Assembly (NCBI GenBank): GCA_964546095.1
Contig: CAZJIR010000001.1
Coordinates: 1-31,256, forward strand
Direction: 5' to 3'
Length of the DNA stretch: 31,256 bases
From: an uncultured Pirellulales bacterium
Lineage (GTDB): Bacteria > Planctomycetota > Phycisphaerae > Sedimentisphaerales > Anaerobacaceae
In this document: in pieces, positions 1 to 21,300 of the stretch
Position numbering within the stretch: position 1 is the first letter of the stretch
Layout of the letters: each line of letters begins with the position of its first letter
Program-made: the position numbers and the translations under genes
The notes under the pieces: generated by a model
Told to the model about the DNA's origin: nothing
The model's database searches: none
What the model saw: the letters and a program-made list of their open reading frames with translations, nothing else

Positions 1-136
1 GTTTTGCTGAGGGAGTTGCCGTCCGTAACGCCTTCTGTCGTAATATCCTCGCTTGTTTGTTAGCAGAATTAGCCTGTATTAAAGCAACAATGACGGATGC
101 AATAGCAGTAATCACCGCCGTAATGATGGATTCCAT
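1..136 (-). CDS. Hypothetical membrane-anchored protein, 5' part only (runs off the window edge); not in the ORF track
   Basis: Minus-strand ATG at 136 with AAAAGGAG Shine-Dalgarno 5 nt upstream; reads MESIITAVITAIASVIVALIQANSANKQARILRQKALRTATPSAK with no stop to the window edge; hydrophobic N-terminus. Confidence 0.7.
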   Translation of the reverse strand, partial: MESIITAVITAIASVIVALIQANSANKQARILRQKALRTATPSAK

Positions 137-222
137 TGCTACTCCTTTTATTAACTAGCAGGTTGATTAATCATTATCCAATACATCTTTTATGAAGGTA
201 GATTATATTTCTTTATGGAAAC

Positions 223-351
223 CTAACTATGTATATATGGTTTCCATATAAGGATATTATCAGCATGGGCTAAAACCCATCCTGCCTTCAAAATTAACGT
301 CCGCGCGATGAGATAATATTACGGTGGAAGAAGGGAGAAGGCAAGGGAAAA
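223..351 (-). other. Promoter + hairpin + attI-like element, copy 1
   Basis: TTGCCT (344-339)-N17-TAATAT (321-316); ends in GGAAACCATATATACATAGTTAGGT, containing a perfect GTTRRRY; about 98 of 124 aligned positions identical to 5256-5389. Confidence 0.6.
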
Positions 352-1389: not shown

Positions 1390-1464
1390 GGTGAAAGTAG
1401 CTCAGTTGGTTAGAGCACTGGATTGTGGATCCAGGGGTCGGGGGTTCGAGTCCCCTCTTTCACC
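1390..1464 (+). tRNA. tRNA-His (GTG)
   Basis: Acceptor stem GTGAAAG/CTTTCAC with G-1 opposite C73; anticodon stem CTGGA/TCCAG with loop TTGTGGA; GGTTCGAGTCC T-arm; CCA not encoded. Confidence 0.97.
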
Positions 1465-1539
1465 CTTTTTGATAACCCGCGTTATCGTCCTTTTGTCGTG
1501 TGCCTTTCTGTATGGCTGTCTGAAAAGGAGGAAGCGAAA

Positions 1540-2874
1540 ATGAAGAAACTCACAAACGGCTCGAAACACTTTGTAATTATTGCTTCTGTAGTTGTTATCG
1601 TTTGTGCGGGGTATGCGCAGGGTGCGATGGATGTATCGAATCAGCCGCCAGCCCGCCGCGTCGCGTCGAGGCCAGAGGGATTTGTGTCGCTGTTTAACGG
1701 CAGGGACCTTACCGGCTGGAAGGGATTGGTGGGCGACCCGAAGAGTCGGGATAAGATGAGCCGGGAAGAATTAGCCAAAGCGCAGGCGAAAGCGGATGAG
1801 GACATGCGGGCGCACTGGAAGGTGGCCGATGGCGTGCTTTGCTTCGACGGCAAAGGGTTTCAAAGCCTGTGCACGGCGCAAGACTATGGCGATTTCGAGA
1901 TGTTAGTGGACTGGAAGATTGAAGAAGGCGGGGACAGCGGGATTTATCTGCGGGGCTCGCCGCAGGTGCAGATTTGGGATTCGCAGGATAGAGAAATCGG
2001 CTCGGGCGGATTGTTTAATAATAAGAAAGGGCCGGACAAGCCGTCGAAGGTTGCCGACAGGCCGGTCGGGCAGTGGAACACGTTCAGGATTGTTATGATA
2101 GGCGAGCTGGTGACGGTGTATCTTAACGATGTGCCGGTGGTCGATAATGTTGTGTTAGAGAATTACTGGGAGCGTGATAAGCCGATATATCCGACCGGCC
2201 AGATAGAGCTTCAGGCACATAACAGCCCGCTGTATTTCAGGAATATATTTATTCGTGAGATAACCAACAGGCTTACGGAGCAGGAAAAGGCCGGGGGCTT
2301 CAAACTACTGTTTAACGGTAAGGACCTGGCGGGATGGACGGGCAGTACGAAAGGTTACATGGTCGAGGATGGCAGGATTATTTTAAAGCCCGAACACGAG
2401 GGTGGTAACCTGTTCACAGCGGACGAATACGGCGATTTTATTTTTCGCTTCGAGTTCAAACTTACGCCGGGCGCTAATAACGGCCTTGCGATTCGTTCCC
2501 CTCTTTCCGGTGACCCAGCGTATATGGGGATGGAAATTCAAATCTTAGACAACACCTCGGAAAAATATGGAAATCTTAAGCCCTATCAGTTTCACGGTTC
2601 TATTTACGGCGTTGTGCCGGCCAATCGCGGTTATCTTAAACCTGTGGGGCAGTGGAATTTTGAAGAGGTTATCGCCAAAGGCAATCGTATTACGGTTAAG
2701 CTTAACGGTACGACTATCGTTGATGCGGACATAGAAAAGGCAAGCACGCCCAAGACAATTGATGGAAGAGAGCATCCGGGGCTGAAGCGGAGCAAAGGGC
2801 ATATCGGCTTTTGCGGGCATAGTGACAGTGACTATATAGAGTTTCGGAGCATAAGAATCAAGGCTCTTGATTAG
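1540..2874 (+). CDS. Secreted tandem DUF1080 protein (3-keto-disaccharide hydrolase / 3-ketoglycal hydratase family)
   Basis: Signal peptide; two domains each starting GF.xLFNG(R/K)DLxGW, with NSG-like SGIYLR/NNGLAIR and GQWN motifs. Start moved to ATG 1540 (AAGGAGG upstream) because the track start at 1423 lies inside the tRNA. Confidence 0.88.
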   Translation: MKKLTNGSKHFVIIASVVVIVCAGYAQGAMDVSNQPPARRVASRPEGFVSLFNGRDLTGWKGLVGDPKSRDKMSREELAKAQAKADEDMRAHWKVADGVLCFDGKGFQSLCTAQDYGDFEMLVDWKIEEGGDSGIYLRGSPQVQIWDSQDREIGSGGLFNNKKGPDKPSKVADRPVGQWNTFRIVMIGELVTVYLNDVPVVDNVVLENYWERDKPIYPTGQIELQAHNSPLYFRNIFIREITNRLTEQEKAGGFKLLFNGKDLAGWTGSTKGYMVEDGRIILKPEHEGGNLFTADEYGDFIFRFEFKLTPGANNGLAIRSPLSGDPAYMGMEIQILDNTSEKYGNLKPYQFHGSIYGVVPANRGYLKPVGQWNFEEVIAKGNRITVKLNGTTIVDADIEKASTPKTIDGREHPGLKRSKGHIGFCGHSDSDYIEFRSIRIKALD

Positions 2875-4189: not shown

Positions 4190-4203
4190 AAAATAAAAAG
4201 TTC

Positions 4204-4239
4204 AAATGTAAAATGCAAAATTGAGGAATCGCTGCGCGA
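4204..4239 (+). repeat. 36-bp dispersed repeat, copy 1 (AAATGTAAAATGCAAAATTGAGGAATCGCTGCGCGA)
   Basis: 35/36 identical to 6414-6449. Confidence 0.85.
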
Positions 4240-4252
4240 AAGCTTTTTAAAC

Positions 4253-4670
4253 AGATTTCTCGACAAGCTCGAAATGACATTTTCGTATATCCCTTCGACT
4301 ACGCTCCCGCCTTCGCTAAAGCTTCCACCTTCGCTTACGCTTCCGCCTTCGCTTACGCTACGGCGAGACGAGACGGCGAGATAAAACGGTGAGACAGGCA
4401 GGGCAGGCTAAGGAAGCGCATCTGGCACAGAAGCCAGATTTCTCCACTGCGTTCGCTTCCCCTTCGACTGCGCTCAGGGCTAAAGGCTATTTACGGTCCG
4501 CCTTGGGCGTGCTTAAGGCAGAAATGACGATGAGGAGAGATTGCCACATCGCGATGATGGATAGGATTTAGAATCGGTGGGGGCCGGCTTCGCTATAGCT
4601 TCCGCCGAGCCAAGCAAGCCGCCACCCTACTAAAGTTAGATGATTTTTTCCATTCGCTTCGCTCATTCAG
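4253..4670. repeat. Mosaic of REP-like palindromic repeats, including 3 x 18-bp tandem units at 4307-4360
   Basis: AGATTTCTC...GAAATGAC twice; CCCTTCGACT(A/G)CGCTC twice; CC(G/A)CCTTCGCT(A/T)A(A/C)GCT three times; GTGGGGGCCGGCTT...AAGCCGCCACCCTAC inverted pair. Confidence 0.75.
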
Positions 4671-4714
4671 TGGCTGCCATCCCTCGTAGTCTTCTGGGGG
4701 GGTAATTATGAAAC

Positions 4715-4740
4715 TTCTAACATAAAGCGAGTTGTTAGAA
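4715..4740 (-). other. Short attC-like inverted repeat (TTCTAAC-N12-GTTAGAA)
   Basis: Perfect 7-bp inverted repeat starting 2 nt after the stop codon of the 4743-5231 gene; R''/R'-like but without L boxes. Confidence 0.45.
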
Positions 4741-4742
4741 AA

Positions 4743-5231
4743 TTACGTTAAGATTTTATCTTTTTTTAATTTCCAAACATATACGCATACTGCAATGCTA
4801 ATCGCATAACCGATGCATGCCCCAATTAGTGCCCCGATTATACTAGCCACCTGGATTATTAAATTCCCTTCGATTGGTCCGCCCACTCCCATGGCCTGAA
4901 GCCAACCTTTTGTTGAAATACGCCAGATTGTGTATAATGTACCTATTGTTAGTCCGCCAGCGAATAAATATAAAGCTGTTTTTCGTAACAGGAATAGTGA
5001 TATTGCTCCGGCTAAATTAATTCCCATTAAAAGAACAGTATAACCATAGTCAAAAGTTGTAAGATTATTGAAATATGCTTCTTGTCCTGCAGTTAGAGGA
5101 AAGATGTTACGGAAAATAAAAAAAAGGCCAAATGAAAGGATAGTTAAGGGAAATGAAATTAAATAAAATATTGATATAACCCAAACTAAAACAGGCCGGT
5201 TTTTCTTCGCGCTTAAATTGTTCGTCTCCAT
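4743..5231 (-). CDS. Hypothetical integral membrane protein, AT-rich and cassette-like
   Basis: 162 aa, about 4 hydrophobic helices; AAGGAAG upstream of the ATG; visibly lower GC than neighbouring genes. Confidence 0.85.
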   Translation of the reverse strand: METNNLSAKKNRPVLVWVISIFYLISFPLTILSFGLFFIFRNIFPLTAGQEAYFNNLTTFDYGYTVLLMGINLAGAISLFLLRKTALYLFAGGLTIGTLYTIWRISTKGWLQAMGVGGPIEGNLIIQVASIIGALIGACIGYAISIAVCVYVWKLKKDKILT

Positions 5232-5253
5232 TGATCTTCCTTTATTTTTTCAC

Positions 5254-5389
5254 CTCTAACTATGTTTATATGGTTTCCGGATAAAACTATTGTCAACATG
5301 AGCGGCAGAGTTGCCCATACTACCTTAAAAATAAACGTCCGCACGACAATGAAATATTACGGTGTAAAAGTGGGAAATGCAAGGGAAAA
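5254..5389 (-). other. Promoter + hairpin + attI-like element, copy 2
   Basis: TTGCAT (5382-5377)-N17-TAATAT (5359-5354); ends in GGAAACCATATAAACATAGTTAGAG; homologous to 223-351. Confidence 0.6.
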
Positions 5390-5598: not shown

Positions 5599-6399
5599 AT
5601 GAAGGCTAAACTTGTAGTTGTCGGTGCGGCCGGTCGCATGGGCAGGCGCATCGTTGCATTGGCGGTCGAATCGGGCGAATTCGATATCATCGGGGCGGTG
5701 GAAAAACAAGGTCATCCTGATATCGGTAAAGATGCCGGCCTTATCGCGGGAGTGGGAGCTATCAATATTGAATTGGCTGATGTTTTCACTGCCGGTGGCG
5801 ATGTAGCGATTGATTTTTCGCTGCCTGAATCGATTGATAAAACTGTTGATTATTGTCTTGAGAACAAGGCCGCTCTGGTATCGGGCACTACAGGTTTAAA
5901 TGAGAAGCAGCGCGAAAAGATAGAAGCGGCATCGGAGAAAACTCCCATTATATACGGCACCAATATGAGCGTTGGGATGAATGTTCTGTTTAACCTCGTC
6001 GGGAAAGTCACGACGATGCTCGGCGATGAGTATGATATAGAGATAATCGAACAGCATCATCGCTTCAAAAAAGATGCACCCAGCGGGAGCGCTCTTACGT
6101 TAGCTGAGAATATTTGTGAGGCAACCGGCAGGGAGATAAATGAATCTCTTACTCACGGCAGGAGCGGCAGAGATACGCTGCGGCAAAAAGGCGCTATCGG
6201 CATGCACGCGGTTCGGGCCGGTGATATTGTCGGCGTTCATTCGGTTATCTTCGGAACGCTCGGCGAGACGGTGACACTTAATCATACCGCAAACAGCAGG
6301 GACACATTCGTCAGAGGGGCGTTAAGGGCGGCGAAGTGGCTCGTCGGCAAAGAGCCAGGCCTGTATTCAATGACCGATGTGATGGGAATTGAAAAATAG
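5599..6399 (+). CDS. dapB: 4-hydroxy-tetrahydrodipicolinate reductase
   Basis: GAAGRMG, DFS, VSGTTG, NMSVG, EQHHRFKKDAPSGSA and HAVRAGDIVGVH motifs. Confidence 0.97.
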   Translation: MKAKLVVVGAAGRMGRRIVALAVESGEFDIIGAVEKQGHPDIGKDAGLIAGVGAINIELADVFTAGGDVAIDFSLPESIDKTVDYCLENKAALVSGTTGLNEKQREKIEAASEKTPIIYGTNMSVGMNVLFNLVGKVTTMLGDEYDIEIIEQHHRFKKDAPSGSALTLAENICEATGREINESLTHGRSGRDTLRQKGAIGMHAVRAGDIVGVHSVIFGTLGETVTLNHTANSRDTFVRGALRAAKWLVGKEPGLYSMTDVMGIEK

Positions 6400-6413
6400 C
6401 GAAATAAAAATAA

Positions 6414-6487
6414 AAATGTAAAATGCAAAATTGTGGAATCGCTGCGCGATTTTATTTCGTATCTCGTAATTCGTGAAGCGTATCTCG
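6414..6487 (+). repeat. 36-bp dispersed repeat, copy 2 (6414-6449), followed by a TCGT-heptamer array
   Basis: 35/36 identical to 4204-4239, then TCGTATC TCGTAAT TCGTGAA GCGTATC TCG. Confidence 0.8.
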
Positions 6488-6719
6488 GCTGTTGAATGTT
6501 GTTCGTTTCTGGTGCTGCCGGAGGCCAGCATGAGGAACATACAGCTGCCTTATAGGCAGGTAAATATTCGCAGTCCTGTAAGAAACGCAGTAAATAAAAA
6601 TAGTACCGAACCGCAGGCAGCACAATGGGATACTCTCCACAGGACGCCCAATGGCGGATTCTGGATTCTCGATGCGCGAACTTAGTCTGTTGTGCGTTTT
6701 ATTTTCCATCAGTGTCTGC

Positions 6720-6812: not shown

Positions 6813-8318
6813 TTAAAGTCCCTTAGCGAGCATATAGTATATCTCGTTCCAGCGAGCTTCTTTTTTGAACTGGCTTAGGCTTGTATCGGCACCAATCAGC
6901 AGATATTCCATGCCGGCCATATCGGCAAAATCTTCCATATGCTCCGAATTGATGACCATGCTGAATCCCGTATGGTGAGCACCACCTGCAAGAATCCAGG
7001 CAGCGGCACCGACCTTGAGATTAGGTTTAGGAACCCAGACTACCCTGGCAACCGGAAGTTTCGGCAAGGGGGCGTCCGGCGGAACTACATCGACCTCATT
7101 GACTATCATACGGAAGCGATTGCCCATGTCTATAACAGAGGCGTTCAGGCCGGGACCTTGCAGTACATCGAAGACCAAGCGCACCGGGTCGGCCTTGCCG
7201 CCTATGCCCAGTGGGTGAACTTCCAGTTTCGCTGTGCCCTCTGCGATGGACGGGCAAACCTCGAGCATATGAGCGCCCAGGACCTTTTCCCCCGCCGGGT
7301 CGAGGTGATAAGTGTAGTCTTCCATAAAGCTCGTGCCGCCTTTAAGCCCTAAAGCCATCACTTTCATGGCACGAACTAAAGCTGCTGTTTTCCAGTCACC
7401 TTCTGCACCGAAGCCATAACCGTCGGCCATCAGTCGCTGAACGGCCAAGCCAGGAAGCTGTTTGAGGCCATGCAGGTCCTCGAAAGTTGTGGTGAATCCT
7501 TTGAAGTCACCATCTTCCAAAAATGCCCTCATACCAAGCTCGATACGGGCGGCTTCGCGCACGGACTTGCGTTTATTACCGCCCTGTTTGCCAGCTTTGG
7601 CCACTTCGTACATGGCATCATACTCTTTCGCGAGTTTGCTGATATCCTTATCGCTAACCTTGTCGATATAGGCCACAAGGTCGCCGATGCCGTATCCGTT
7701 AACCGCATAACAAAGCTGCTTCTGTGCTTCAACTTTATCACCTTCGGTAACGGCCACTTCACGCATGTTGTCTCCGAATCGTGCTATCTTTGCCCCCTGA
7801 GCATCGTGCCAGGCGCAGGCCGCCCGAGCCCAGGTGCCAAGCCTGGCCCGGACCTGATTGTCCTGCCAGTGACCAACCACCACCTTGCGGTTCTTTCTCA
7901 TGCGAGTGCAGATAAAGCCAAACTCACGGCCGCCGTGTGCCGACTGGTTGAGGTTCATAAAGTCCATATCAATCGAATCCCAGGGGATATCACGATTGTA
8001 CTGTGTGTGAAGGTGCACAAAAGGCTTTTGGAGCACCTTTAAACCAGCAATCCACATCTTAGCGGGGCTGAAGGTATGCATCCAGGTTATCAGGCCGATA
8101 CAGTTCGGAGCTACGTTCGCCTTCGTGCAGAGTTCATAGATGGAATCCGGCGTAGTCAGTGTGGGTTTGAAGACGACCTTAACGGGAATCTGTTCGGAGC
8201 GCGACAGAGCCTGGGCAATTTTTTGTGAGTCTTCGGCCACCCGCTTTAGGGTTTTTGGCCCATATAGATGTTGGCTTCCTGTTACAAACCATGCTTCGAG
8301 TTTCTTCAATTCTTTCAT
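6813..8318 (-). CDS. araA: L-arabinose isomerase
   Basis: [52 protein letters not shown] and AGGAHH motifs; 501 aa. Confidence 0.97.
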
Positions 8319-9131: not shown

Positions 9132-10997
9132 TCACTCGACCGTAACGCTTTTTGCAAGGTTTCGAGGTTTATCAACATCATGCCCGCGCAGTAAGGCAGC
9201 GTGATAGGCTAATAATTGCAGCGGTACAACGGTCAGCATTGGCTGTAGCAGTTCCGGTGCTTCTGGAATGGTGATTAAATGGTCGGCGTGTCGTTTGATA
9301 TTTTCATCACCGGCGGTAGCGACAACGATGGTTTTACCGCCGCGTGCCCTGACCTCAGCGATATTGCCCATAATCTTATCATATTGCGGCCCGGCGGTGG
9401 CGATGAAAACCGCAGGCATGCCATCCGCAATCAAAGCAATCGGGCCGTGCTTCATCTCCGCAGCCGGCAGGCCTTCGGCGTGAATATAACTTATTTCTTT
9501 GAGTTTCAGGGCCCCTTCGAGCGCAACAGGATAATTGAAGCCTCTGCCAAGGAAAAGCCAGTTGTTCTGGTCAATGTTCGCCGAGGCGATTTGTTTAATG
9601 TGGTCGGAATCTTCGAGTATTGTGCTTATCTTATCAGGAATTTCGGACAATTCATTAATATACATATTTGCCTGGTCGCTGCTGATGTGTTTTCTTCTGC
9701 CTAATTCAATGGCCAGCATTGTCAGGACCGCCACCTGCGCTGTAAAGGCCTTTGTACTGGCGACGCCAATTTCGGGGCCTGCGTGTAAATATATTCCTGC
9801 ATCGGTGGCTCTGGCAATGGAAGAGCCGACGACATTTACAAGTCCGAGTACCGTTGCGCCACGCTCTTTGGCTTCCTCCACCGCCGCAAGGGTATCGAGA
9901 GTCTCTCCCGATTGACTTATTGATATAACGACTGTGCCATCTTCGATGATAGGATTACGATATCGAAATTCGCTGGCATATTCGGTTTCGGCCGGGATAC
10001 GCGCAAGCTGCTCAAATAAAAATTCGCCGACCAGACTGGCGTGGAACGCTGTTCCGCAGGCGGTCAGGATGAGCCGTCTGGTACGCGTCAGGTCGCGCAG
10101 GTATGAGGCTATACCACCGAGTCTAATCCTTTTATTCTGGCGGTCTATTCGTCCACCCATGCAGGTGCTCAAAGCTTTGGGCTGCTCAAAAATCTCTTTT
10201 AGCATGTGGTGCGAGAAATCGCCCAACTCTATCTGTTCCAGTGAAAATTCAATCCGGCTCAGCTCTTTGCTGATGGTGACATTGTCGATTGTTTTTGTGT
10301 TGAAACCCTCGGGACCGATAGTGACCATCTCGTTGTCGGCAAGATATACCGCCTGAGTCGTATGCTCTACAATTGCAGCAGCATCTGAGGCCAAGATATA
10401 TTCATTTTCTCCCAGACCTAAAATCAAGGGGCTGCCCCTTTTGGCGCCGATTAGGATATCTGGGAAATCCGAGCATATAATCGCCAGGCCGAAAGTACCA
10501 TGCAGTTTTTGAAGGGTCTGCTGAACCGCCCATTCGAATTTATTCTGTCCCTCGGACTTTTGCCCCTTGCCATTGTCGTCTTTGGTATAAAAATAACCGA
10601 TTAAGTTTGCTATGACCTCAGTATCGGTTTCAGTGGTGAATGGAACTCCTTCGTTTTGCAGCCAGGTTTTCAACGTTTCGTAATTTTCGATGATGCCGTT
10701 ATGGACTATTGCTATCTTGCCTGTGTAGTCCAGATGAGGATGTGCGTTGGTGGTGCTGGGCTGCCCGTGTGTGGCCCAGCGTGTGTGGCCGATACCAAAA
10801 GTCTCGGTTTTATCAGGCTCATCTAAAATTTCTTCCAGAGCGCTGATTCTGCCGCTGGTTTTTTTAATTCTTAGAGCGCCGCTGCCCAACAGGGCGAGAC
10901 CGGCAGAATCGTAACCACGATATTCCAGTCTTTTTAGCCCTTCGATTAGAATGGGCTGAGCGAGTTTTTTACCCAGGTAAGCTACTATACCACACAT
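9132..10997 (-). CDS. glmS: Glutamine--fructose-6-phosphate aminotransferase (isomerizing)
   Basis: MCGIV N-terminus; RLEYRGYDSAG, GHTRWATHG, SQSGET and PRNLAKSVTVE motifs. Confidence 0.98.
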   Translation of the reverse strand: MCGIVAYLGKKLAQPILIEGLKRLEYRGYDSAGLALLGSGALRIKKTSGRISALEEILDEPDKTETFGIGHTRWATHGQPSTTNAHPHLDYTGKIAIVHNGIIENYETLKTWLQNEGVPFTTETDTEVIANLIGYFYTKDDNGKGQKSEGQNKFEWAVQQTLQKLHGTFGLAIICSDFPDILIGAKRGSPLILGLGENEYILASDAAAIVEHTTQAVYLADNEMVTIGPEGFNTKTIDNVTISKELSRIEFSLEQIELGDFSHHMLKEIFEQPKALSTCMGGRIDRQNKRIRLGGIASYLRDLTRTRRLILTACGTAFHASLVGEFLFEQLARIPAETEYASEFRYRNPIIEDGTVVISISQSGETLDTLAAVEEAKERGATVLGLVNVVGSSIARATDAGIYLHAGPEIGVASTKAFTAQVAVLTMLAIELGRRKHISSDQANMYINELSEIPDKISTILEDSDHIKQIASANIDQNNWLFLGRGFNYPVALEGALKLKEISYIHAEGLPAAEMKHGPIALIADGMPAVFIATAGPQYDKIMGNIAEVRARGGKTIVVATAGDENIKRHADHLITIPEAPELLQPMLTVVPLQLLAYHAALLRGHDVDKPRNLAKSVTVE

Positions 10998-12508: not shown

Positions 12509-12537
12509 TTGACTACAAAAAGCAGTTGTGCTATAGA
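12509..12537 (+). promoter_or_regulatory. sigma70 promoter for the toxin-antitoxin operon
   Basis: TTGACT-N17-TATAGA with a TGn extension. Confidence 0.6.
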
Positions 12538-12576
12538 GAAACAAAGCAGAAACTAAATATAATCAGGAGAATAATA

Positions 12577-12882
12577 GTGAAGTTTCGTAGAATTAACCTG
12601 CCGGAAGAGAAGATAGCAGATTTTTGTCGGCAGTGGAAAATAACCGAATTAGCTCTGTTTGGTTCTGTGCTGCGGGACGATTTTCGCCCAGACAGTGACA
12701 TTGATATATTAGTAACCTTCGCCGACAATTGTGGATACAGTCTGTTCGATTTAGCACAGATACAGGAACAGTTAAAAGCCATTCTTGCTCACAAAGTGGA
12801 TATAGTGGAAAAAGCCGGTTTGCGAAATCCCTTCCGCAAACGTAATATCCTAAAGAATATGGAGGTTATCTATGCAGCCTGA
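12577..12882 (+). CDS. mntA: Minimal nucleotidyltransferase (MntA-type antitoxin)
   Basis: LFGSVLRDDFRPDSDIDILV (GS-X10-DXD); GTG start at 12577 behind AGGAG. Confidence 0.88.
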   Translation: MKFRRINLPEEKIADFCRQWKITELALFGSVLRDDFRPDSDIDILVTFADNCGYSLFDLAQIQEQLKAILAHKVDIVEKAGLRNPFRKRNILKNMEVIYAA

Positions 12883-13222
12883 AGAACGAGATGTTGCTTT
12901 GCTTTGGGATATGAGAGAAGCGGCTTGCGAAATAGCTCAATTCGTAAAAGGCATAAACTACGAAGAATTTCGATCTAACAAAGTCCTTCGCTATGCTATC
13001 GAAAGGCAGATGCTGGTAATTGGAGAAGCTGCCGGACATGTTTCTTCGACCTTCAGAGACGCCCATTCGGAAATACCGTGGCATTCAATTATTGCCCAGC
13101 GTAACATCCTCGCTCACGAATACGGCGAGATTCTTGTGGAACGAATATGGCGCGTAGCATCGGAACGTATTCCGGAACTTATTAAATTACTCGACCCTCT
13201 GATACCCCAACCTCCTGAATAG
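12872..13222 (+). CDS. hepT: DUF86 / HEPN RNase (HepT-type toxin)
   Basis: IGEAA, EIPW and RNILAHEY (R-X4-H-X-Y) motifs; overlaps mntA. Confidence 0.88.
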   Translation: MQPEERDVALLWDMREAACEIAQFVKGINYEEFRSNKVLRYAIERQMLVIGEAAGHVSSTFRDAHSEIPWHSIIAQRNILAHEYGEILVERIWRVASERIPELIKLLDPLIPQPPE

Positions 13223-17742: not shown

Positions 17743-20700
17743 TTATCTGATTGGCCGTGATAAACTCTCCCGAAGTCTCATTTTAAAATCTCTTTCAATC
17801 GGTCGTCCGGTTGGAGTCATTCTGCCGCCAGGAGCTATTCTGCTGCCCGGAACCATTCCACCTGGAGCCATTTCCATTTCGCCCCGAATCATCGGAGCCT
17901 GAGCTGTGGATGGTTGAGCGAATTCGACGGGTCGGCCTATTATATGTGCCGTAATGAAGACAGCAACTTCCCGGTCAGACTTGGTGTCGTTTTTATTACG
18001 GAATAGCGAGCCTATTATTGGAATACTACTAAAGCCAGGAACCCGTTGTTCGGATAAACGTGTTCGGTTCTCCGTCAGGCCAGCCACAGCAACCGTCCCG
18101 CCGTTTTTAATACTAACGGTGTTAGTAGCCGTTCGCCGTGTAACCACCGGAAGGTCGTTTCCTCTGCCGCGCGGTATGCTGTCACTGACTTCGATAGCCA
18201 AGTCCAGAGTAATATCATTATTGTCCCCTATATGGGGCGTGATACTCAGCTTGGTACCGGACTCAATTTTTTCCATTTCAGTTCGAGTATAGTAGATGGC
18301 ACCTATATCCGGTGAAGTCAGCATATAGTACTCTTCGGTCAAGACATTGATTTCGGCTCTCTTGCCGTCCTGGGCCATGACCTGGGGCTTTGCCAGTATT
18401 GTCGCCTCGTCATTCTCAGAGAGCAAGTTCAGCGCCATATTCAGCGAATCGGTGAATGTTGCATCAGGCGTATATCCGATTGTGATAGCCCCTGCTATCT
18501 TGCCACCTAAGTCGAGCAAATCCCCACCGCGTCCTTTCAGATCGTTACTAAAGCCTCCGGCACTGATAGTAGGCATACCCCACTCGACACCCATATTCAG
18601 CAGGTCGCCGCTTTCCATTACCACACTGCGCGCATCAAGCAAAACATGAGACGGCAGGTGGTCGATTTCCTTTAAGTCCGCTACGATACGCTCCATTAAA
18701 GCCGGCGGGGCAGTTATAACCACCGTGTAAGTATCGGCTCCAGGCCGTCCAACTTCGGCCTGAACGTAATCCGTGAAGGCAGAAGACAAAAGTCCCACCG
18801 CCGCTCTTGCACTAATGTAGCTCATTTTTACCCGGCGCGTTTCGCTCACTTTCGTGAACATTGTGCTTTTGACATCTCCGGAGCAAACCAGGTAATAATA
18901 GGGCGTCTCCTTCACAATATACGGAGTGCCGGCCAAGACAATATCAAGCGCTGTGTCTAACGGCATATCTTTAAGCTGACAGGTTACAGACCCGACGACC
19001 GTTTCGTCTGGAATAATGGTAATGTCCGCTGTCGTAGCGATGGCCTGGAGTGCATCAATTATATCCTCATCAACAAAGATATTACTAATAAGCGGTACTT
19101 CCGCAACGATTTCGCCTGATTCTACTACAGCGGCTGACTTCGGCTTACTCAAAAGTTCTTCCAGTCTTTTCAGTAGTTTATCCGTTTCAGACAATTCTTC
19201 TTCCGGCTCCGTGGTAGTTGGCCCAGTGGGAAATTCCCCGGGGAACGTAGAGTCTTCAACCGGCGGCAAAGTATCTATCGTAGGTTCAGCAGCCGGAGGT
19301 GTTGGCGATGGCCTATGCATAGAGCGATAATCCTCTTCCGTCATATCTTCCATCATATTTTGAGTAACGTTAGTATATGACTTATCCGGAAACTGAAAAC
19401 CTTCCATTGCCAGTGAAATCTCACCGCTCCAGTTGTAAGGCACTTCAACACTGAATTTACCCGAAGCGTCGGTGACGGTGGTACCTCCACCATTATTTGC
19501 GCGGACCTGTACACCTTTGATGCCGGTTCCACCAACCCGCACAACATCGGTTATAGTAAACATCTGTATTTTTGCAACAAAGTTCTGGTTTACAAGGTCT
19601 TTGGTAACAGGCGCAGCTTGTCGTTTATTAGTTGGCCTATAGTTATGGCCCACTTTTGTAGGTGTTATCGTACCGCGCCAACCGTAATCCACGGTCAGTT
19701 CATACCTGCCGTTAGTGTCGGTGTCGCTGGAACCTCCACCTGCATCTGCCACGATGAATACACCCTCGACAGGCTCGCCCTTTTCAGAACGTATAGTACC
19801 TGAAATGGTACGTTTTTCCAAAGCCGCAAAATAGTCCTGACTAACCTCAGGGCCTAAAAGCTCAGAGTACGTAATCTCAGGGGGGTTGAAGGTGTAACCG
19901 GCCTTTATCGGTTTCACTGTGCCGCTCCAGCCGTAAGGAATCTCTGCGGTATAAATACCATCGGCATTACTTATAACAGGTCTGCCCGGCAGGCCTCTCA
20001 ACGCTACACTAGCCATTCCAACAGAACCGCTAATTGTAAATGTAACCTGTTTTGCAGTGAATCTTTGATTCTTCTGGTCGGTAGTAATATTTGTGTACGG
20101 TTTAGAAGACGGTGTAAATTCATAACCGTCAATCATAGGCATGACTGTGCCAGTCCAGCCCCAGGGAACATTGACACTGAACATGCCGCCTGCACTGGTA
20201 ACCGGATTATCCGGCAAGCCATCTATTGTTACGCCTTCCATACCGACAGAGCCGGCAATGGTCAATATAATCGGTGTCGAAGTGTAATCCTGCTCGGTCT
20301 TGTCGCTTATCACTTTAGTGTAATTTATTGTAGCGGGGTCTTCGAATTTGTAACCCGGCTTTTCCGGTTTAACGGTTCCGCTCCAGCCCCAAGGGACATT
20401 AGCACTGTAATAGCCGTCCATATCGGTAAAAACAACATCTTCCGGAAAACCCTTCATTTCCACGTTGTCCAACCCAGCCGAGCCTGATATCATGAAAGTA
20501 ATTTCATTAGCAAAGTAATCCTGACTAGCATAAGCATTCATGACTTCAGAATATGGTGTTTCGGCTGGCTCAAAAGTGTAACCCTCTTTCACCGGCTTAA
20601 CCGTGCCGCTCCAGTTGTATTTAACAGCGGCACTGTAATTGCCATTCCTGTCTGTGGTCGGATTGTTCGGCAGGCCGTTCATTACCACCCCTTCTACGCC

Positions 20701-21300
20701 AACAGAACCGGATATTTCATAAGTAATTACGGCACCACTATAGTTCTGATTCGCCGTATCCCTTGTAACGGAAGTGTATGATATAGTGTTTGGTGTGAAC
20801 ATGTAACCCTCCTTTGACGGTATAACCGACCCAGCCCAATCGTAAGGTACATCGGCTTTGTAAGTACCGTTGCTACCTGTAATCGGGGCATCCGGCAGGC
20901 CTTCCATCATCACGCCTTCCATCGGCGCACCATCCATCCGTACCACACCTGAAACAGTAAATTGTCTTATCGTAGCAACGTAATCCTGATTAAGCTGGTT
21001 GCTTGTAACTTTTGGGTAATCTTTGTTAGGCGGATCGAAGGTATAACCCGGCATTTCAGGTGTAACTTTACCTCTCCAACCATAATCAACGGTAACGCTA
21101 TAAAAACCGCTCCCATCAGTAACAGGATTTTCCGGCAGACCTTTCATCGTCACGCCACCCAGTCCTGTAGAACCGGATATGGTGAAAGTTACTTTTGTCC
21201 CTTCGATTGCCTGCACGCTGACATTCATCGCGCATAACAAAACGACGCAGAGGACAATGATGCCGTCCGATAAAATTCTGCCGATATTTTTACTTGCCAT
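17743..21300 (-). CDS. Secretin (PilQ/GspD superfamily) with eight N-terminal Ig/carboxypeptidase-regulatory-like repeats
   Basis: C-terminal VLLDARSVV...MGVEWG, ILAKPQVMAQDGKRAEI, SGTKLSITPHI, VPGFSSIPIIGSLFR and EVAVFITAHII motifs; STN/N0 and N3-like domains; eight ~75-84-aa repeats. Confidence 0.9.
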   Translation of the reverse strand: MASKNIGRILSDGIIVLCVVLLCAMNVSVQAIEGTKVTFTISGSTGLGGVTMKGLPENPVTDGSGFYSVTVDYGWRGKVTPEMPGYTFDPPNKDYPKVTSNQLNQDYVATIRQFTVSGVVRMDGAPMEGVMMEGLPDAPITGSNGTYKADVPYDWAGSVIPSKEGYMFTPNTISYTSVTRDTANQNYSGAVITYEISGSVGVEGVVMNGLPNNPTTDRNGNYSAAVKYNWSGTVKPVKEGYTFEPAETPYSEVMNAYASQDYFANEITFMISGSAGLDNVEMKGFPEDVVFTDMDGYYSANVPWGWSGTVKPEKPGYKFEDPATINYTKVISDKTEQDYTSTPIILTIAGSVGMEGVTIDGLPDNPVTSAGGMFSVNVPWGWTGTVMPMIDGYEFTPSSKPYTNITTDQKNQRFTAKQVTFTISGSVGMASVALRGLPGRPVISNADGIYTAEIPYGWSGTVKPIKAGYTFNPPEITYSELLGPEVSQDYFAALEKRTISGTIRSEKGEPVEGVFIVADAGGGSSDTDTNGRYELTVDYGWRGTITPTKVGHNYRPTNKRQAAPVTKDLVNQNFVAKIQMFTITDVVRVGGTGIKGVQVRANNGGGTTVTDASGKFSVEVPYNWSGEISLAMEGFQFPDKSYTNVTQNMMEDMTEEDYRSMHRPSPTPPAAEPTIDTLPPVEDSTFPGEFPTGPTTTEPEEELSETDKLLKRLEELLSKPKSAAVVESGEIVAEVPLISNIFVDEDIIDALQAIATTADITIIPDETVVGSVTCQLKDMPLDTALDIVLAGTPYIVKETPYYYLVCSGDVKSTMFTKVSETRRVKMSYISARAAVGLLSSAFTDYVQAEVGRPGADTYTVVITAPPALMERIVADLKEIDHLPSHVLLDARSVVMESGDLLNMGVEWGMPTISAGGFSNDLKGRGGDLLDLGGKIAGAITIGYTPDATFTDSLNMALNLLSENDEATILAKPQVMAQDGKRAEINVLTEEYYMLTSPDIGAIYYTRTEMEKIESGTKLSITPHIGDNNDITLDLAIEVSDSIPRGRGNDLPVVTRRTATNTVSIKNGGTVAVAGLTENRTRLSEQRVPGFSSIPIIGSLFRNKNDTKSDREVAVFITAHIIGRPVEFAQPSTAQAPMIRGEMEMAPGGMVPGSRIAPGGRMTPTGRPIERDFKMRLRESLSRPIR

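What the first reader, a model, noticed from the sequence alone, without database searches (positions are those of the whole stretch)
4700..5260. The 162-aa membrane gene has integron-cassette boundaries and a miniature attC
Seen on the minus strand: GTTAGAG 23 nt before the ATG, the stop codon, then 2 nt, then TTCTAAC (6/7 complementary to the upstream GTTAGAG), 12 nt, and GTTAGAA. The sequence after that (GTTAGAAGTTTCATAA) resembles what directly follows the site in copy 1 (GTTAGGTTTCCATAA), as expected if the gene was inserted at the G/TT point and displaced the original right half. Known: cassettes begin with TTRRRY and carry the complementary RYYYAAC right after the stop; functional attC sites are roughly 55-140 bp, and truncated ones are known. 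Inference: either a frozen cassette with a deleted attC, or a cassette type using 26-bp sites.
Basis: partly seen in the sequence, partly recalled or inferred. Interest (0 to 1): 0.7.

Follow-up and report, generated by a model that had tools for sequence, protein, structure and literature searches.

The report
Frozen integron cassette at orphan attI-like site
The 162-aa membrane gene is a real integron gene cassette whose own recombination site has been cut down to a 26-base stub, and it sits at a conserved, promoter-bearing landing site that heads cassette arrays in more than a hundred sediment metagenome contigs with no integrase gene beside it.

Summary
The cassette reading is supported by comparative evidence.

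- **Homology limits.** Similarity to the nearest homologue (83% DNA identity) starts at GTTAGAG and stops at YTCTAAC.
- **Homologue contexts.** Five of eight homologue clusters lie in integron contexts. One is the first cassette of a complete integron with a bona fide IntI.
- **Upstream junction.** It is the end of a conserved motif, GGAAACCATATAWACATWG|TT. The motif occurs twice in the window and in at least 119 metagenome contigs.
  - Diverse genes follow it. In 32 of 111 cases their attC R'' box is exactly complementary to the 4 nt after the GTT, against 2 expected.
  - All 75 model-detected attC sites lie on the motif's strand, and 67 lie downstream of it.
  - No integrase is adjacent, so the motif behaves as an orphan attI-like site with its own promoter-like module.
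- **The 26-nt "mini attC".** It keeps only the R'' and R' boxes. The L boxes and central loop are missing. Canonical attCs of this lineage are 48–137 nt and none is close to 26 nt. It is best read as an internally deleted, probably immobile attC, not a new site type.
- **Not shown.** No integrase was found in the window, no excision was seen, and promoter activity is untested.

The parts
5254..5389 (-). Module copy 2: a ~136-nt non-coding unit (75-78% identical to copy 1) that ends in the conserved cassette-insertion site.
   Evidence: Direct repeats D3/D5 and the alignment. Similarity to copy 1 ends at CATAGTTAG.
5354..5382 (-). Sigma-70-like promoter in module copy 2: TTGCAT (5382-5377), 17 nt, TAATAT (5359-5354). 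Inferred, not shown.
   Evidence: Read from the sequence. The same layout is in copy 1 (TTGCCT 344-339, TAATAT 321-316). It sits where class-2 metagenome modules carry TTGCTC-N17-TATAAT. It falls below the threshold of the consensus scan.
5258..5278 (-). Conserved attI-like core GGAAACCATATAAACATAG|TT. The inferred crossover lies between G5260 and T5259.
   Evidence: The motif was found in at least 119 metagenome contigs. Bases after the GTT follow the integron core consensus A-G-G-C. They co-vary with the downstream R'' box.
4721..5259 (-). The inserted cassette in linear form, TTAGAG...G (539 nt, 35% GC against 47% for the window).
   Evidence: Homology to L001 is limited to this unit. GC content. 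The gene is absent from all 80 relatives' dapB loci.
4743..5231 (-). 162-aa small membrane protein gene with about 4 hydrophobic helices; ribosome-binding site AAGGAAG at 5242-5236.
   Evidence: No Pfam or NCBIfam family matched. Eight homologue clusters were found.
4734..4740 (-). R'' box TTCTAAC, 2 nt after the stop codon.
   Evidence: It is conserved as CTCTAAC in L001 and aligns to R'' of the attC model.
4715..4740 (-). 26-nt attC remnant: R'' + AA + 10 nt + R' (GTTAGAA, 4721-4715). The L'' and L' boxes and the central loop are missing.
   Evidence: It is the best attC-model hit in the window, but only 12.7 bits (E = 0.46), with 45 of 61 model positions deleted. DNA hairpin energy is -4.4 kcal/mol.
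4706..4714 (-). GTTTCATAA, the displaced right half of the target site (compare GGTTTCCATAA in copy 1).
   Evidence: about p = 2e-4.
213..351 (-). Module copy 1. Core GGAAACCATATATACATAGTT at 245-225 and GTTAGGT at 227-221. A perfect 10-bp hairpin (TATGGAAACC 248-239 with GGTTTCCATA 223-214) has the crossover point in its 15-nt loop. This may be the unoccupied state of the site.
   Evidence: I17; -8.4 kcal/mol.
1..136 (-). 5' part of the small membrane gene downstream of copy 1. Whether it is a cassette is unknown.
   Evidence: No homologue was found for the 45-aa fragment.

Best explanation
**What it is.** The 162-aa gene is an integron-type gene cassette, acquired horizontally from a low-GC donor.

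**How it got there (inferred).** An integron integrase encoded outside this window recombined the cassette's attC with a dedicated double-stranded site, GGAAACCATATAWACATWG|TT, in module copy 2. This placed the cassette directly behind the module's promoter-like sequence. The original right half of the site (GTTTCATAA...) was pushed to the far side.

**What the site is.** In this Phycisphaerae lineage it acts as an attI-like landing site that heads cassette arrays but is not next to an intI gene.

**What happened afterwards (inferred).** The cassette's attC lost its L boxes and central loop by internal deletion. Only R''-12 nt-R' (26 nt) remains, which probably cannot bind the second integrase pair, so the cassette is fixed in place.

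**Shown:** the boundaries, the cassette-borne family, the conserved junction with R'' covariation, and the absence of a full attC.
**Inferred:** the integrase acting in trans, promoter activity, the deletion event, and immobility.
For: - **Boundaries.** Window-L001 identity is about 83% inside GTTAGAG...YTCTAAC and 30-45% outside it.
- **Cassette-borne family.**
  - L211: an IntI (TIGR02249, 468 bits against a cut-off of 265) sits beside the P0003 gene. G|TTAGGT lies 5 nt before the ATG. The attC at 2461-2550 has R'' ACCTAAC, which is exactly complementary.
  - L088, L212, L213 and L001/L002: attCs flank or precede the homologues.
- **Conserved junction.**
  - The motif is in at least 119 contigs, with consensus AGGC after the GTT.
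  - The 4 nt after the GTT are exactly complementary to an nnnnAAC within 120 nt of the first ORF's stop in 32 of 111 cases. Permutation gives a mean of 2.0 and a maximum of 7.
  - All 75 attC hits lie on the motif's strand, 67 of them downstream. Of 89 instances with enough downstream sequence, 52 have an attC within 3 kb. Only 4 of 104 have an attC just upstream.
- **attC model.** The L-box stem has compensatory changes at 7 of 9 pairs.
- **Window scan.** There is no canonical attC. The 26-mer matches through its R boxes only.
- **Accessory status.** The gene is absent from 80 relatives. The GFO-dapB gap ranges from 59 bp to about 8 kb. GC is 36% against 47%, the 3.7th percentile.
- **Displaced half-site.**
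Against: - No integron integrase lies in the window. None lies next to any of the 57 motif instances that have at least 1.5 kb of upstream sequence. The recombinase is therefore assumed.
- No excised circle or empty-site read was seen, although depth was only about 4x and only assembled contigs were available.
- The 26-mer scores E = 0.46 on its own.
- R'' starts with T rather than a purine, and it matches the cassette's 5' end at only 6 of 7 positions.
- The closest homologue (L001) also lacks a complete attC, so no intact attC of this particular cassette was recovered.
- The window's modules share only the last ~28 nt and the promoter layout with the metagenome module classes.
Confidence: 0.8

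Rival explanations
1. The 26-nt R''-N12-R' sequence is a working miniature attC, or a double-stranded simple site, so the cassette is still mobile.
For: R'' and R' are perfectly complementary. The AAC-N12-GTT spacing equals that of the conserved site itself, GGAAAC-N12-GTTAGG.
Against: The 75 model-detected attC sites beside the same motif are 51-102 nt (median 62), and the hand-defined and training sites run from 48 to 137 nt. The well-defined sites carry L boxes. The covariance model has to delete 45 of 61 positions to fit the 26-mer. By established integron biology (my own knowledge), an attC needs both an R box and an L box to bind two integrase monomers. No excision joints were seen (low power).
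Confidence: 0.07
2. Module and gene moved together as one unit by some other mechanism, for example a promoter-bearing MITE-like or IS-derived element. On this view the GTT junction is not an integrase crossover in this instance.
For: The module occurs at two unrelated housekeeping positions in the window and is absent from the same positions in relatives. High-copy REP-like repeats fill the neighbouring spacer, and a RAYT-like gene lies beside the motif-bearing cassette in relative L021.
Against: Similarity between the two module copies, and to L021 and 126 metagenome instances, stops exactly at the GTT while the downstream genes differ. The right half of the site reappears after the cassette. 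Homology to L001 starts at the GTT, not at the module.
Confidence: 0.08
3. An ordinary native gene: the conserved upstream element is only a shared promoter or leader, and the GTTAG/CTAAC motifs are coincidence.
For: The modules have promoter-like hexamers. The 7-nt inverted repeat alone is within chance.
Against: The R'' covariation (32 of 111 against 2 expected), the strand-locked attC arrays downstream of the motif, the integron-borne homologues, the low GC, absence from 80 relatives, and the joint-motif test (1 of 144 ORFs).
Confidence: 0.03

Closest known systems
attI plus Pc platform of a complete integron (for example class 1 attI1 with DR1 GTTACGC, DR2 GTTATGG and core GTTAGGC; described in PMC3146285 and PMC4889954)
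   Same: Cassettes are inserted at G|TT of a conserved double-stranded site. Core-like GTTATAC direct repeats lie upstream of the crossover. A promoter upstream reads into the cassettes, and attC arrays follow on the same strand.
   Different: No intI is adjacent (0 of 57 instances with at least 1.5 kb upstream). The site is multi-copy: two in this 31-kb window and two per contig in several metagenome loci. It sits among housekeeping genes. The sequence is unrelated to known attI sites, with 12 nt between the AAC and GTT elements.
CALIN and SALIN (clusters of attC sites, or single attC sites, lacking an integron integrase; PMC4889954; 10.1101/2022.09.11.507474)
   Same: Cassettes with attC sites and no nearby integrase. 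The metagenome loci would be called CALINs, and the window locus is a lone cassette.
   Different: As described, CALINs have no defined head site or promoter. PMC4889954 notes that Pc cannot drive the cassettes of a CALIN split off from an integron, and that expression of CALIN genes is unknown. Here the arrays start at a conserved site with a promoter-like module. The window's site is too degenerate to be detected as an attC (E = 0.46).
attG insertion of cassettes into genomes (Loot et al., 10.1101/2022.09.11.507474)
   Same: A cassette is inserted outside a complete integron, can be expressed from a nearby promoter, and the recombination is attC with a double-stranded site.
   Different: [quoted passage not shown] Here one site of at least 21 nt is reused in more than 119 contigs.
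Cassettes with truncated, lost or replaced attC (fused cassettes in resistance integrons, from my own knowledge; delta-attI-type cassettes, PMC12901181)
   Same: The 3' recombination site departs from the canonical attC, which changes cassette mobility.
   Different: In delta-attI cassettes the 3' site is an attI remnant and is still functional. Here both R boxes remain and the interior is missing. Function was not tested.

Membership tests
Integron gene cassette | The 5' end lies at a G|TTRRRY core junction. | tested here: met
   GTTAGAG at 5260-5254 lies exactly where similarity to copy 1, L021 and 126 metagenome instances ends. The consensus after the GTT is A-G-G-C.
Integron gene cassette | An R'' box (RYYYAAC) follows the ORF and is complementary to the cassette's own 5' TTRRRY. 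| tested here: met
   TTCTAAC lies 2 nt after the stop, 6/7 complementary to GTTAGAG; its first base is T rather than a purine. L001 has a perfect pair, CTCTAAC with GTTAGAG. The same rule holds in 32 of 111 cassettes at this site, against 2 expected.
Integron gene cassette | A complete attC hairpin (R''-L''...L'-R' with extrahelical bases, roughly 55-140 nt). | tested here: not met
   The covariance model R1 aligns the R boxes only and deletes 45 of 61 positions; 12.7 bits, E = 0.46. The site is 26 nt, against 48-137 nt for the lineage's attC sites.
Integron gene cassette | A single, usually promoterless ORF with a short 5' leader, in array orientation. | tested here: met
   The leader is 22 nt with an AAGGAAG ribosome-binding site. 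The median distance from GTT to the start codon in the family of sites is 24 nt.
Integron gene cassette | Relatives of the gene are found as cassettes in integrons. | tested here: met
   Five of eight homologue clusters: L211 (a complete integron with IntI), L088, L212, L213 and L001/L002. P0006, P0007 and P0009 are not cassette-borne.
Integron gene cassette | Excision and integration by an IntI. | tested here: inconclusive
   No joint links position 5260 to 4721 in the salt-marsh run X1. However, depth is about 4x and only assembled contigs are available.
Complete integron | An intI gene (a tyrosine recombinase with the IntI-specific domain) lies next to attI. | tested here: not met
   Family scans of the window's main ORFs and a six-frame tyrosine-recombinase motif scan of the whole window found none. 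The same motif scan found none beside the motif in the metagenome loci; it does recover the L211 IntI as a control.
attI site | A conserved double-stranded site at the head of the array, where attC-bearing cassettes are inserted at G|TT. | tested here: met
   By position and junction logic only. RNAalifold found no conserved hairpin in the class-0 modules, which is consistent with a double-stranded site. Binding by an integrase was not tested.
CALIN | At least two attC sites without a nearby intI. | tested here: not met
   The window has no significant attC. Many of the metagenome loci do qualify, for example L098 with 4 attCs and L158 with 6 model hits.
attG-type secondary-site insertion | The target is an arbitrary genomic site with minimal consensus (described in the preprint's abstract as a very large landscape of sites unlike classical att sites). 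| tested here: not met
   The target is a conserved motif of at least 21 nt that is reused in more than 119 contigs.

The most novel reading that the evidence does not exclude
Phycisphaerae-type bacteria carry a dispersed family of integrase-less landing pads. Each is a short module with its own promoter and a conserved attI-like site, present in several copies per genome. A single integron integrase acting in trans could then install and express cassettes at many chromosomal positions. That would give CALIN-type arrays a defined head and an expression signal.
Probability: 0.45. Interest if true: 0.8.

Novelty: new variant of a known kind. Interest (0 to 1): 0.62.

Why it matters
- **Head site for integrase-less arrays.** Integron biology assumes one attI and one Pc next to intI. 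Arrays without an integrase (CALINs) are common, but no defined head site or promoter has been described for them, and whether their genes are expressed is unknown (PMC4889954). A conserved, multi-copy, promoter-linked insertion site would explain how such arrays are built and read in at least one lineage.
- **A testable substrate.** It also provides an experimentally tractable site for the integrases of environmental integrons.
- **How a cassette becomes a resident gene.** The 162-aa gene shows one route: capture at such a site, followed by loss of the inner attC.

Tried and rejected
- **140-nt repeats as long attC-like hairpins.** Folding gave only weak, inconsistent structures. RNAalifold on 47 class-0 modules found no consensus structure.
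- **Home-made attC scanner.** It hit the window no more often than shuffles (3 hits against 2-4) and missed known sites, so I replaced it with a covariance model.
- **Rfam.** Only two tRNAs in the window, and nothing in 8 related loci.
- **Search for intI upstream of the motif.** Divergent upstream ORFs were unrelated proteins. The only tyrosine recombinase in the motif-scan loci (L120) is Xer-like, 3.5 kb away, and far below the IntI cut-off.
- **Exact-protein lookup of the window's own contig.** Not on record.
- **Homologue search with the 45-aa fragment of the 1-136 gene.**
- **RNA runs.** None available.
- **DNA run X1.** Low depth and no informative joints; several joints come from high-copy REP-like repeats.
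- **Aligning the window's modules to class-2 modules.** Only the terminal ~28 nt and the promoter layout are shared.

Full report
**1. Observation.**
All the motifs are present on the minus strand:
- GTTAGAG at 5260-5254.
- ATG at 5231 and stop TAA at 4745-4743, followed by TT.
- TTCTAAC at 4740-4734, then 12 nt, then GTTAGAA at 4721-4715, then GTTTCATAA.

"Copy 1" refers to a ~140-nt repeat. Copy 1 is at 213-351 and copy 2 at 5254-5389; they are 75-78% identical. On the minus strand both end at CATAGTTAG, and different small membrane genes follow them.

The perfect 7-nt inverted repeat is not remarkable on its own. The window holds two such AAC...GTT pairs against about 0.66 expected. The combination is remarkable: of 144 ORFs of at least 50 aa, only this one has GTTAG upstream and CTAAC at its stop, against about 0.02 expected.

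**2. Context.**
The window is a housekeeping stretch of a Phycisphaerae/Sedimentisphaerales (Planctomycetota) genome. It carries tRNA-His, a DUF1080 hydrolase, a Gfo/Idh/MocA oxidoreductase, dapB, araA, glmS, hisH/F, clpB, guaA, ruvABC and cysS. The best dapB relative is 88% identical. I found no tyrosine recombinase in the window.

Relatives keep the gene order DUF1080-GFO-[gap]-dapB-...-glmS. The gap between GFO and dapB, however, runs from 59 bp (L081) to about 8 kb. None of the 80 relatives has the 162-aa gene. The gene has 36% GC against 47% for the window, the 3.7th percentile. It is therefore an accessory insertion in a variable spot.

**3. The gene family is carried by integrons.**
Only eight homologue clusters exist in 5.8 billion proteins. 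All are proteins of about 140-180 aa with about four hydrophobic helices and no known domain. Their contexts are:
- **P0003 (L211).** It is the first cassette of a complete integron.
  - A divergent 341-aa protein scores 468 bits on the integron-integrase model TIGR02249, against a cut-off of 265.
  - The gene is preceded by G|TTAGGT.
  - It is followed by an attC whose R'' is ACCTAAC, the exact complement.
- **P0008 (L088).** It sits in an array of small same-strand genes, between an attC ending GTTAGGT and an ACCTAAC after its stop.
- **P0004 and P0005.** Each has an attC directly upstream.
- **P0002 (L001/L002; 64% amino-acid, 83% DNA identity).** It follows five attC sites.
- **P0006, P0007 and P0009.** None shows attC sites.

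Between the window and L001, identity is about 83% from GTTAGAG to YTCTAAC. It falls to 30-45% immediately outside on both sides. L001 has the perfectly complementary pair GTTAGAG with CTCTAAC.

**4. The upstream junction is a conserved cassette-insertion site.**
- **Occurrence among the relatives.** The last 23 nt of the window repeat occur twice in the window and once in relative L021. There they precede an unrelated gene that has a clear attC.
- **Occurrence in metagenomes.** The sequences downstream of the GTT differ; there are 111 non-redundant cases.
- **Consensus after the GTT.** The next four positions decay through the consensus A-G-G-C, which gives the classical integron core GTTAGGC.
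- **R'' covariation.** In 32 of 111 cases those four bases are exactly complementary to an nnnnAAC within 120 nt of the stop of the first ORF. Permutation gives a mean of 2.0 and a maximum of 7 in 1000. This is the signature of a cassette whose own R'' matches its own 5' end.
- **attC model.** I built a covariance model from 26 of these sites. Its L-box stem shows compensatory changes at 7 of 9 pairs.
- **attC placement in the motif loci.** In 100 motif loci the model finds 75 attC sites at E <= 1e-3.
  - All 75 lie on the motif's strand, and 67 lie downstream of it.
  - Of 89 instances with enough downstream sequence, 52 have an attC within 3 kb.
  - Several are followed by 3-6 attC sites in a row.
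  - Only 4 of 104 instances have an attC just upstream.
- **Background rate.** In 1.15 Mb around dapB in relatives, the model finds only 5 sites.
- **No integrase adjacent.** None of the 57 instances with at least 1.5 kb of upstream sequence has a tyrosine recombinase next to it. The same motif scan does recover the L211 IntI.

The sequence upstream of the motif falls into a few conserved classes of about 115 to more than 260 nt.
- **Promoter-like hexamers.**
  - Classes 1 and 2 carry clear sigma-70-like hexamers; class 2 has TTGCTC-N17-TATAAT. Class 0 has only a possible extended -10 (TGTTATACT), read by eye.
  - The window copies carry TTGCAT or TTGCCT, 17 nt, then TAATAT at their 5' ends.
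- **Core-like repeats.** One or two GTTATAC repeats precede the site. This recalls DR1 and DR2 of attI1 as described in PMC3146285.
- **No known or conserved structure.** There is no conserved secondary structure in class 0 and no Rfam match.

By position and junction logic the motif behaves as an attI with a Pc-like promoter. Unlike a normal attI it is orphan and multi-copy.

**5. The 26-nt site.**
The attC model's best hit in the whole window is 4715-4740 on the minus strand. It scores only 12.7 bits (E = 0.46). It aligns through R'' plus AA and R', with 45 of 61 model positions deleted. No canonical attC exists in the window.

The 75 attC sites detected beside the same motif are 51-102 nt, median 62. 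Sites used elsewhere in this work range from 48 to 137 nt. None is close to 26 nt.

The bases after R'' (AACTCGCT) resemble the usual start of L'', for example AATTCGCTCC in L115. The bases before R' (TTAT) resemble the usual end of the site. This fits an internal deletion of roughly 35-50 nt.

L001's copy keeps R'' and an L''-like segment but lacks L' and R'. Both known copies of this cassette are therefore defective, in different ways. I conclude that the site is a remnant, and that the cassette is probably fixed in place.

**6. The displaced half-site.**
In copy 1, the crossover point lies in the 15-nt loop of a perfect 10-bp hairpin (TATGGAAACC...GGTTTCCATA, -8.4 kcal/mol).

In copy 2 the left arm is upstream of the cassette. 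A one-edit copy of the right arm (GTTTCATAA) follows the cassette's GTTAGAA directly. Only two unrelated one-edit matches exist in the window, giving about p = 2e-4.

Whether copy 1 is empty or holds the 1-136 gene as a cassette cannot be decided. The sequence beyond the window is unavailable, and the 45-aa fragment has no detectable homologue.

**7. What is not shown.**
- The integrase is not identified.
- Promoter activity is inferred from hexamers alone.
- Excision was not seen. The only runs holding this organism are salt-marsh metagenomes, with about 4x depth in the better one and only assembled contigs. No RNA run is available.

**8. Comparison with known systems.**
- **The cassette.** It meets the boundary, R'', orientation and family criteria of an integron cassette, but fails the complete-attC criterion.
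- **The locus.**
  - It is not a complete integron, because there is no intI.
  - It is not a CALIN, because it has fewer than two attC sites (definition in PMC4889954).
  - It is not an attG insertion, because the target is a dedicated conserved site rather than one of a very broad range of genomic sites (10.1101/2022.09.11.507474).
- **Non-canonical 3' sites.** They are known in mobile integrons (PMC12901181), but those are attI remnants.
- **Possible novelty.** I found no description of the conserved orphan attI-like platform in the searched literature.

**Verdict.**
- The lone degenerate cassette is ordinary.
- The conserved integrase-less landing site that it exposes is the interesting part.

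Noticed in passing
window 4196-4239 and 6406-6449; 4213-4680; 6319-6552; 4292-4359: A 44-nt direct repeat (91%) lies 6 nt after the stops of the GFO gene and of dapB. These spacers reach 50-120x word depth in run X1, against about 4x for the rest of the genome, so they are high-copy REP/MITE-like repeats. The region also holds an 18-nt tandem repeat and a GTAGGGTGG...CCCCACC palindrome. That palindrome resembles the REPs that flank a RAYT-like transposase in L021 (ORF about 1857-2405).
   Followed up: partly
L092, L100, L108, L109, L116, L123, L139, L146, L154; L107 (motif at 9578-9598, minus strand): The sequence GTTACGCGCGGTTCAACGGAATTCAATAGAATGCACGAAGTTCCCTGCTGATTAGGGGAA recurs directly after the attC of the first cassette behind the motif. 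In L107 the conserved site is fused directly to ...G|TTCAACGGAATTC. That may be an unoccupied or recombined site, or an array-terminal element.
   Followed up: partly
L021 1717-1745, L129 375-400 and 1780-1810, L095, L147, L157, L166, L201: A second recurrent right flank follows attC sites: G|TTAGGGAACGAATATGATATCATATGA, which contains a 14-nt palindrome. In L129 it runs on into the next module, so modules can also sit inside arrays (4 of 104 cases).
   Followed up: partly
L001 1917, 4756, 8617, 9344, 11096, 12391: The low-GC contig that carries the closest homologue has its own ~120-nt intergenic repeat. The repeat holds GGGACGTCCC palindromes and a promoter-like TTGGGT-N17-TAAATA, and it often lies just after an attC R' box. 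It may be an analogous expression module in another lineage.
   Followed up: no
window 4743-5231 (protein residues about 118-133): The window's protein has a 16-aa insertion (PIEGNLIIQVASIIGA) in the last hydrophobic region. It is absent from all eight homologues.
   Followed up: no
window 12526-13222 (+): A nucleotidyltransferase (MNT-like) and HepT-like RNase pair, a type VII toxin-antitoxin-like module, lies between hisF and a GNAT acetyltransferase gene.
   Followed up: no
window 6813-8318 (-): The L-arabinose isomerase gene lies between dapB and the N-methyl/DUF1559 gene only in the window, L008 and L047. Most relatives lack it there, so this is a second variable spot.
   Followed up: no
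window 17743-21300 (-): A 1185-aa ORF contains seven ~228-nt (76-aa) tandem repeats at 61-78% identity. No Pfam scan was run on it.
   Followed up: no
window 1423-2874 (+): The mechanical ORF start (TTG at 1423) overlaps tRNA-His (1391-1465). The real start of the DUF1080 protein is probably the internal MKKLTNG... about 115 nt further on.
   Followed up: no
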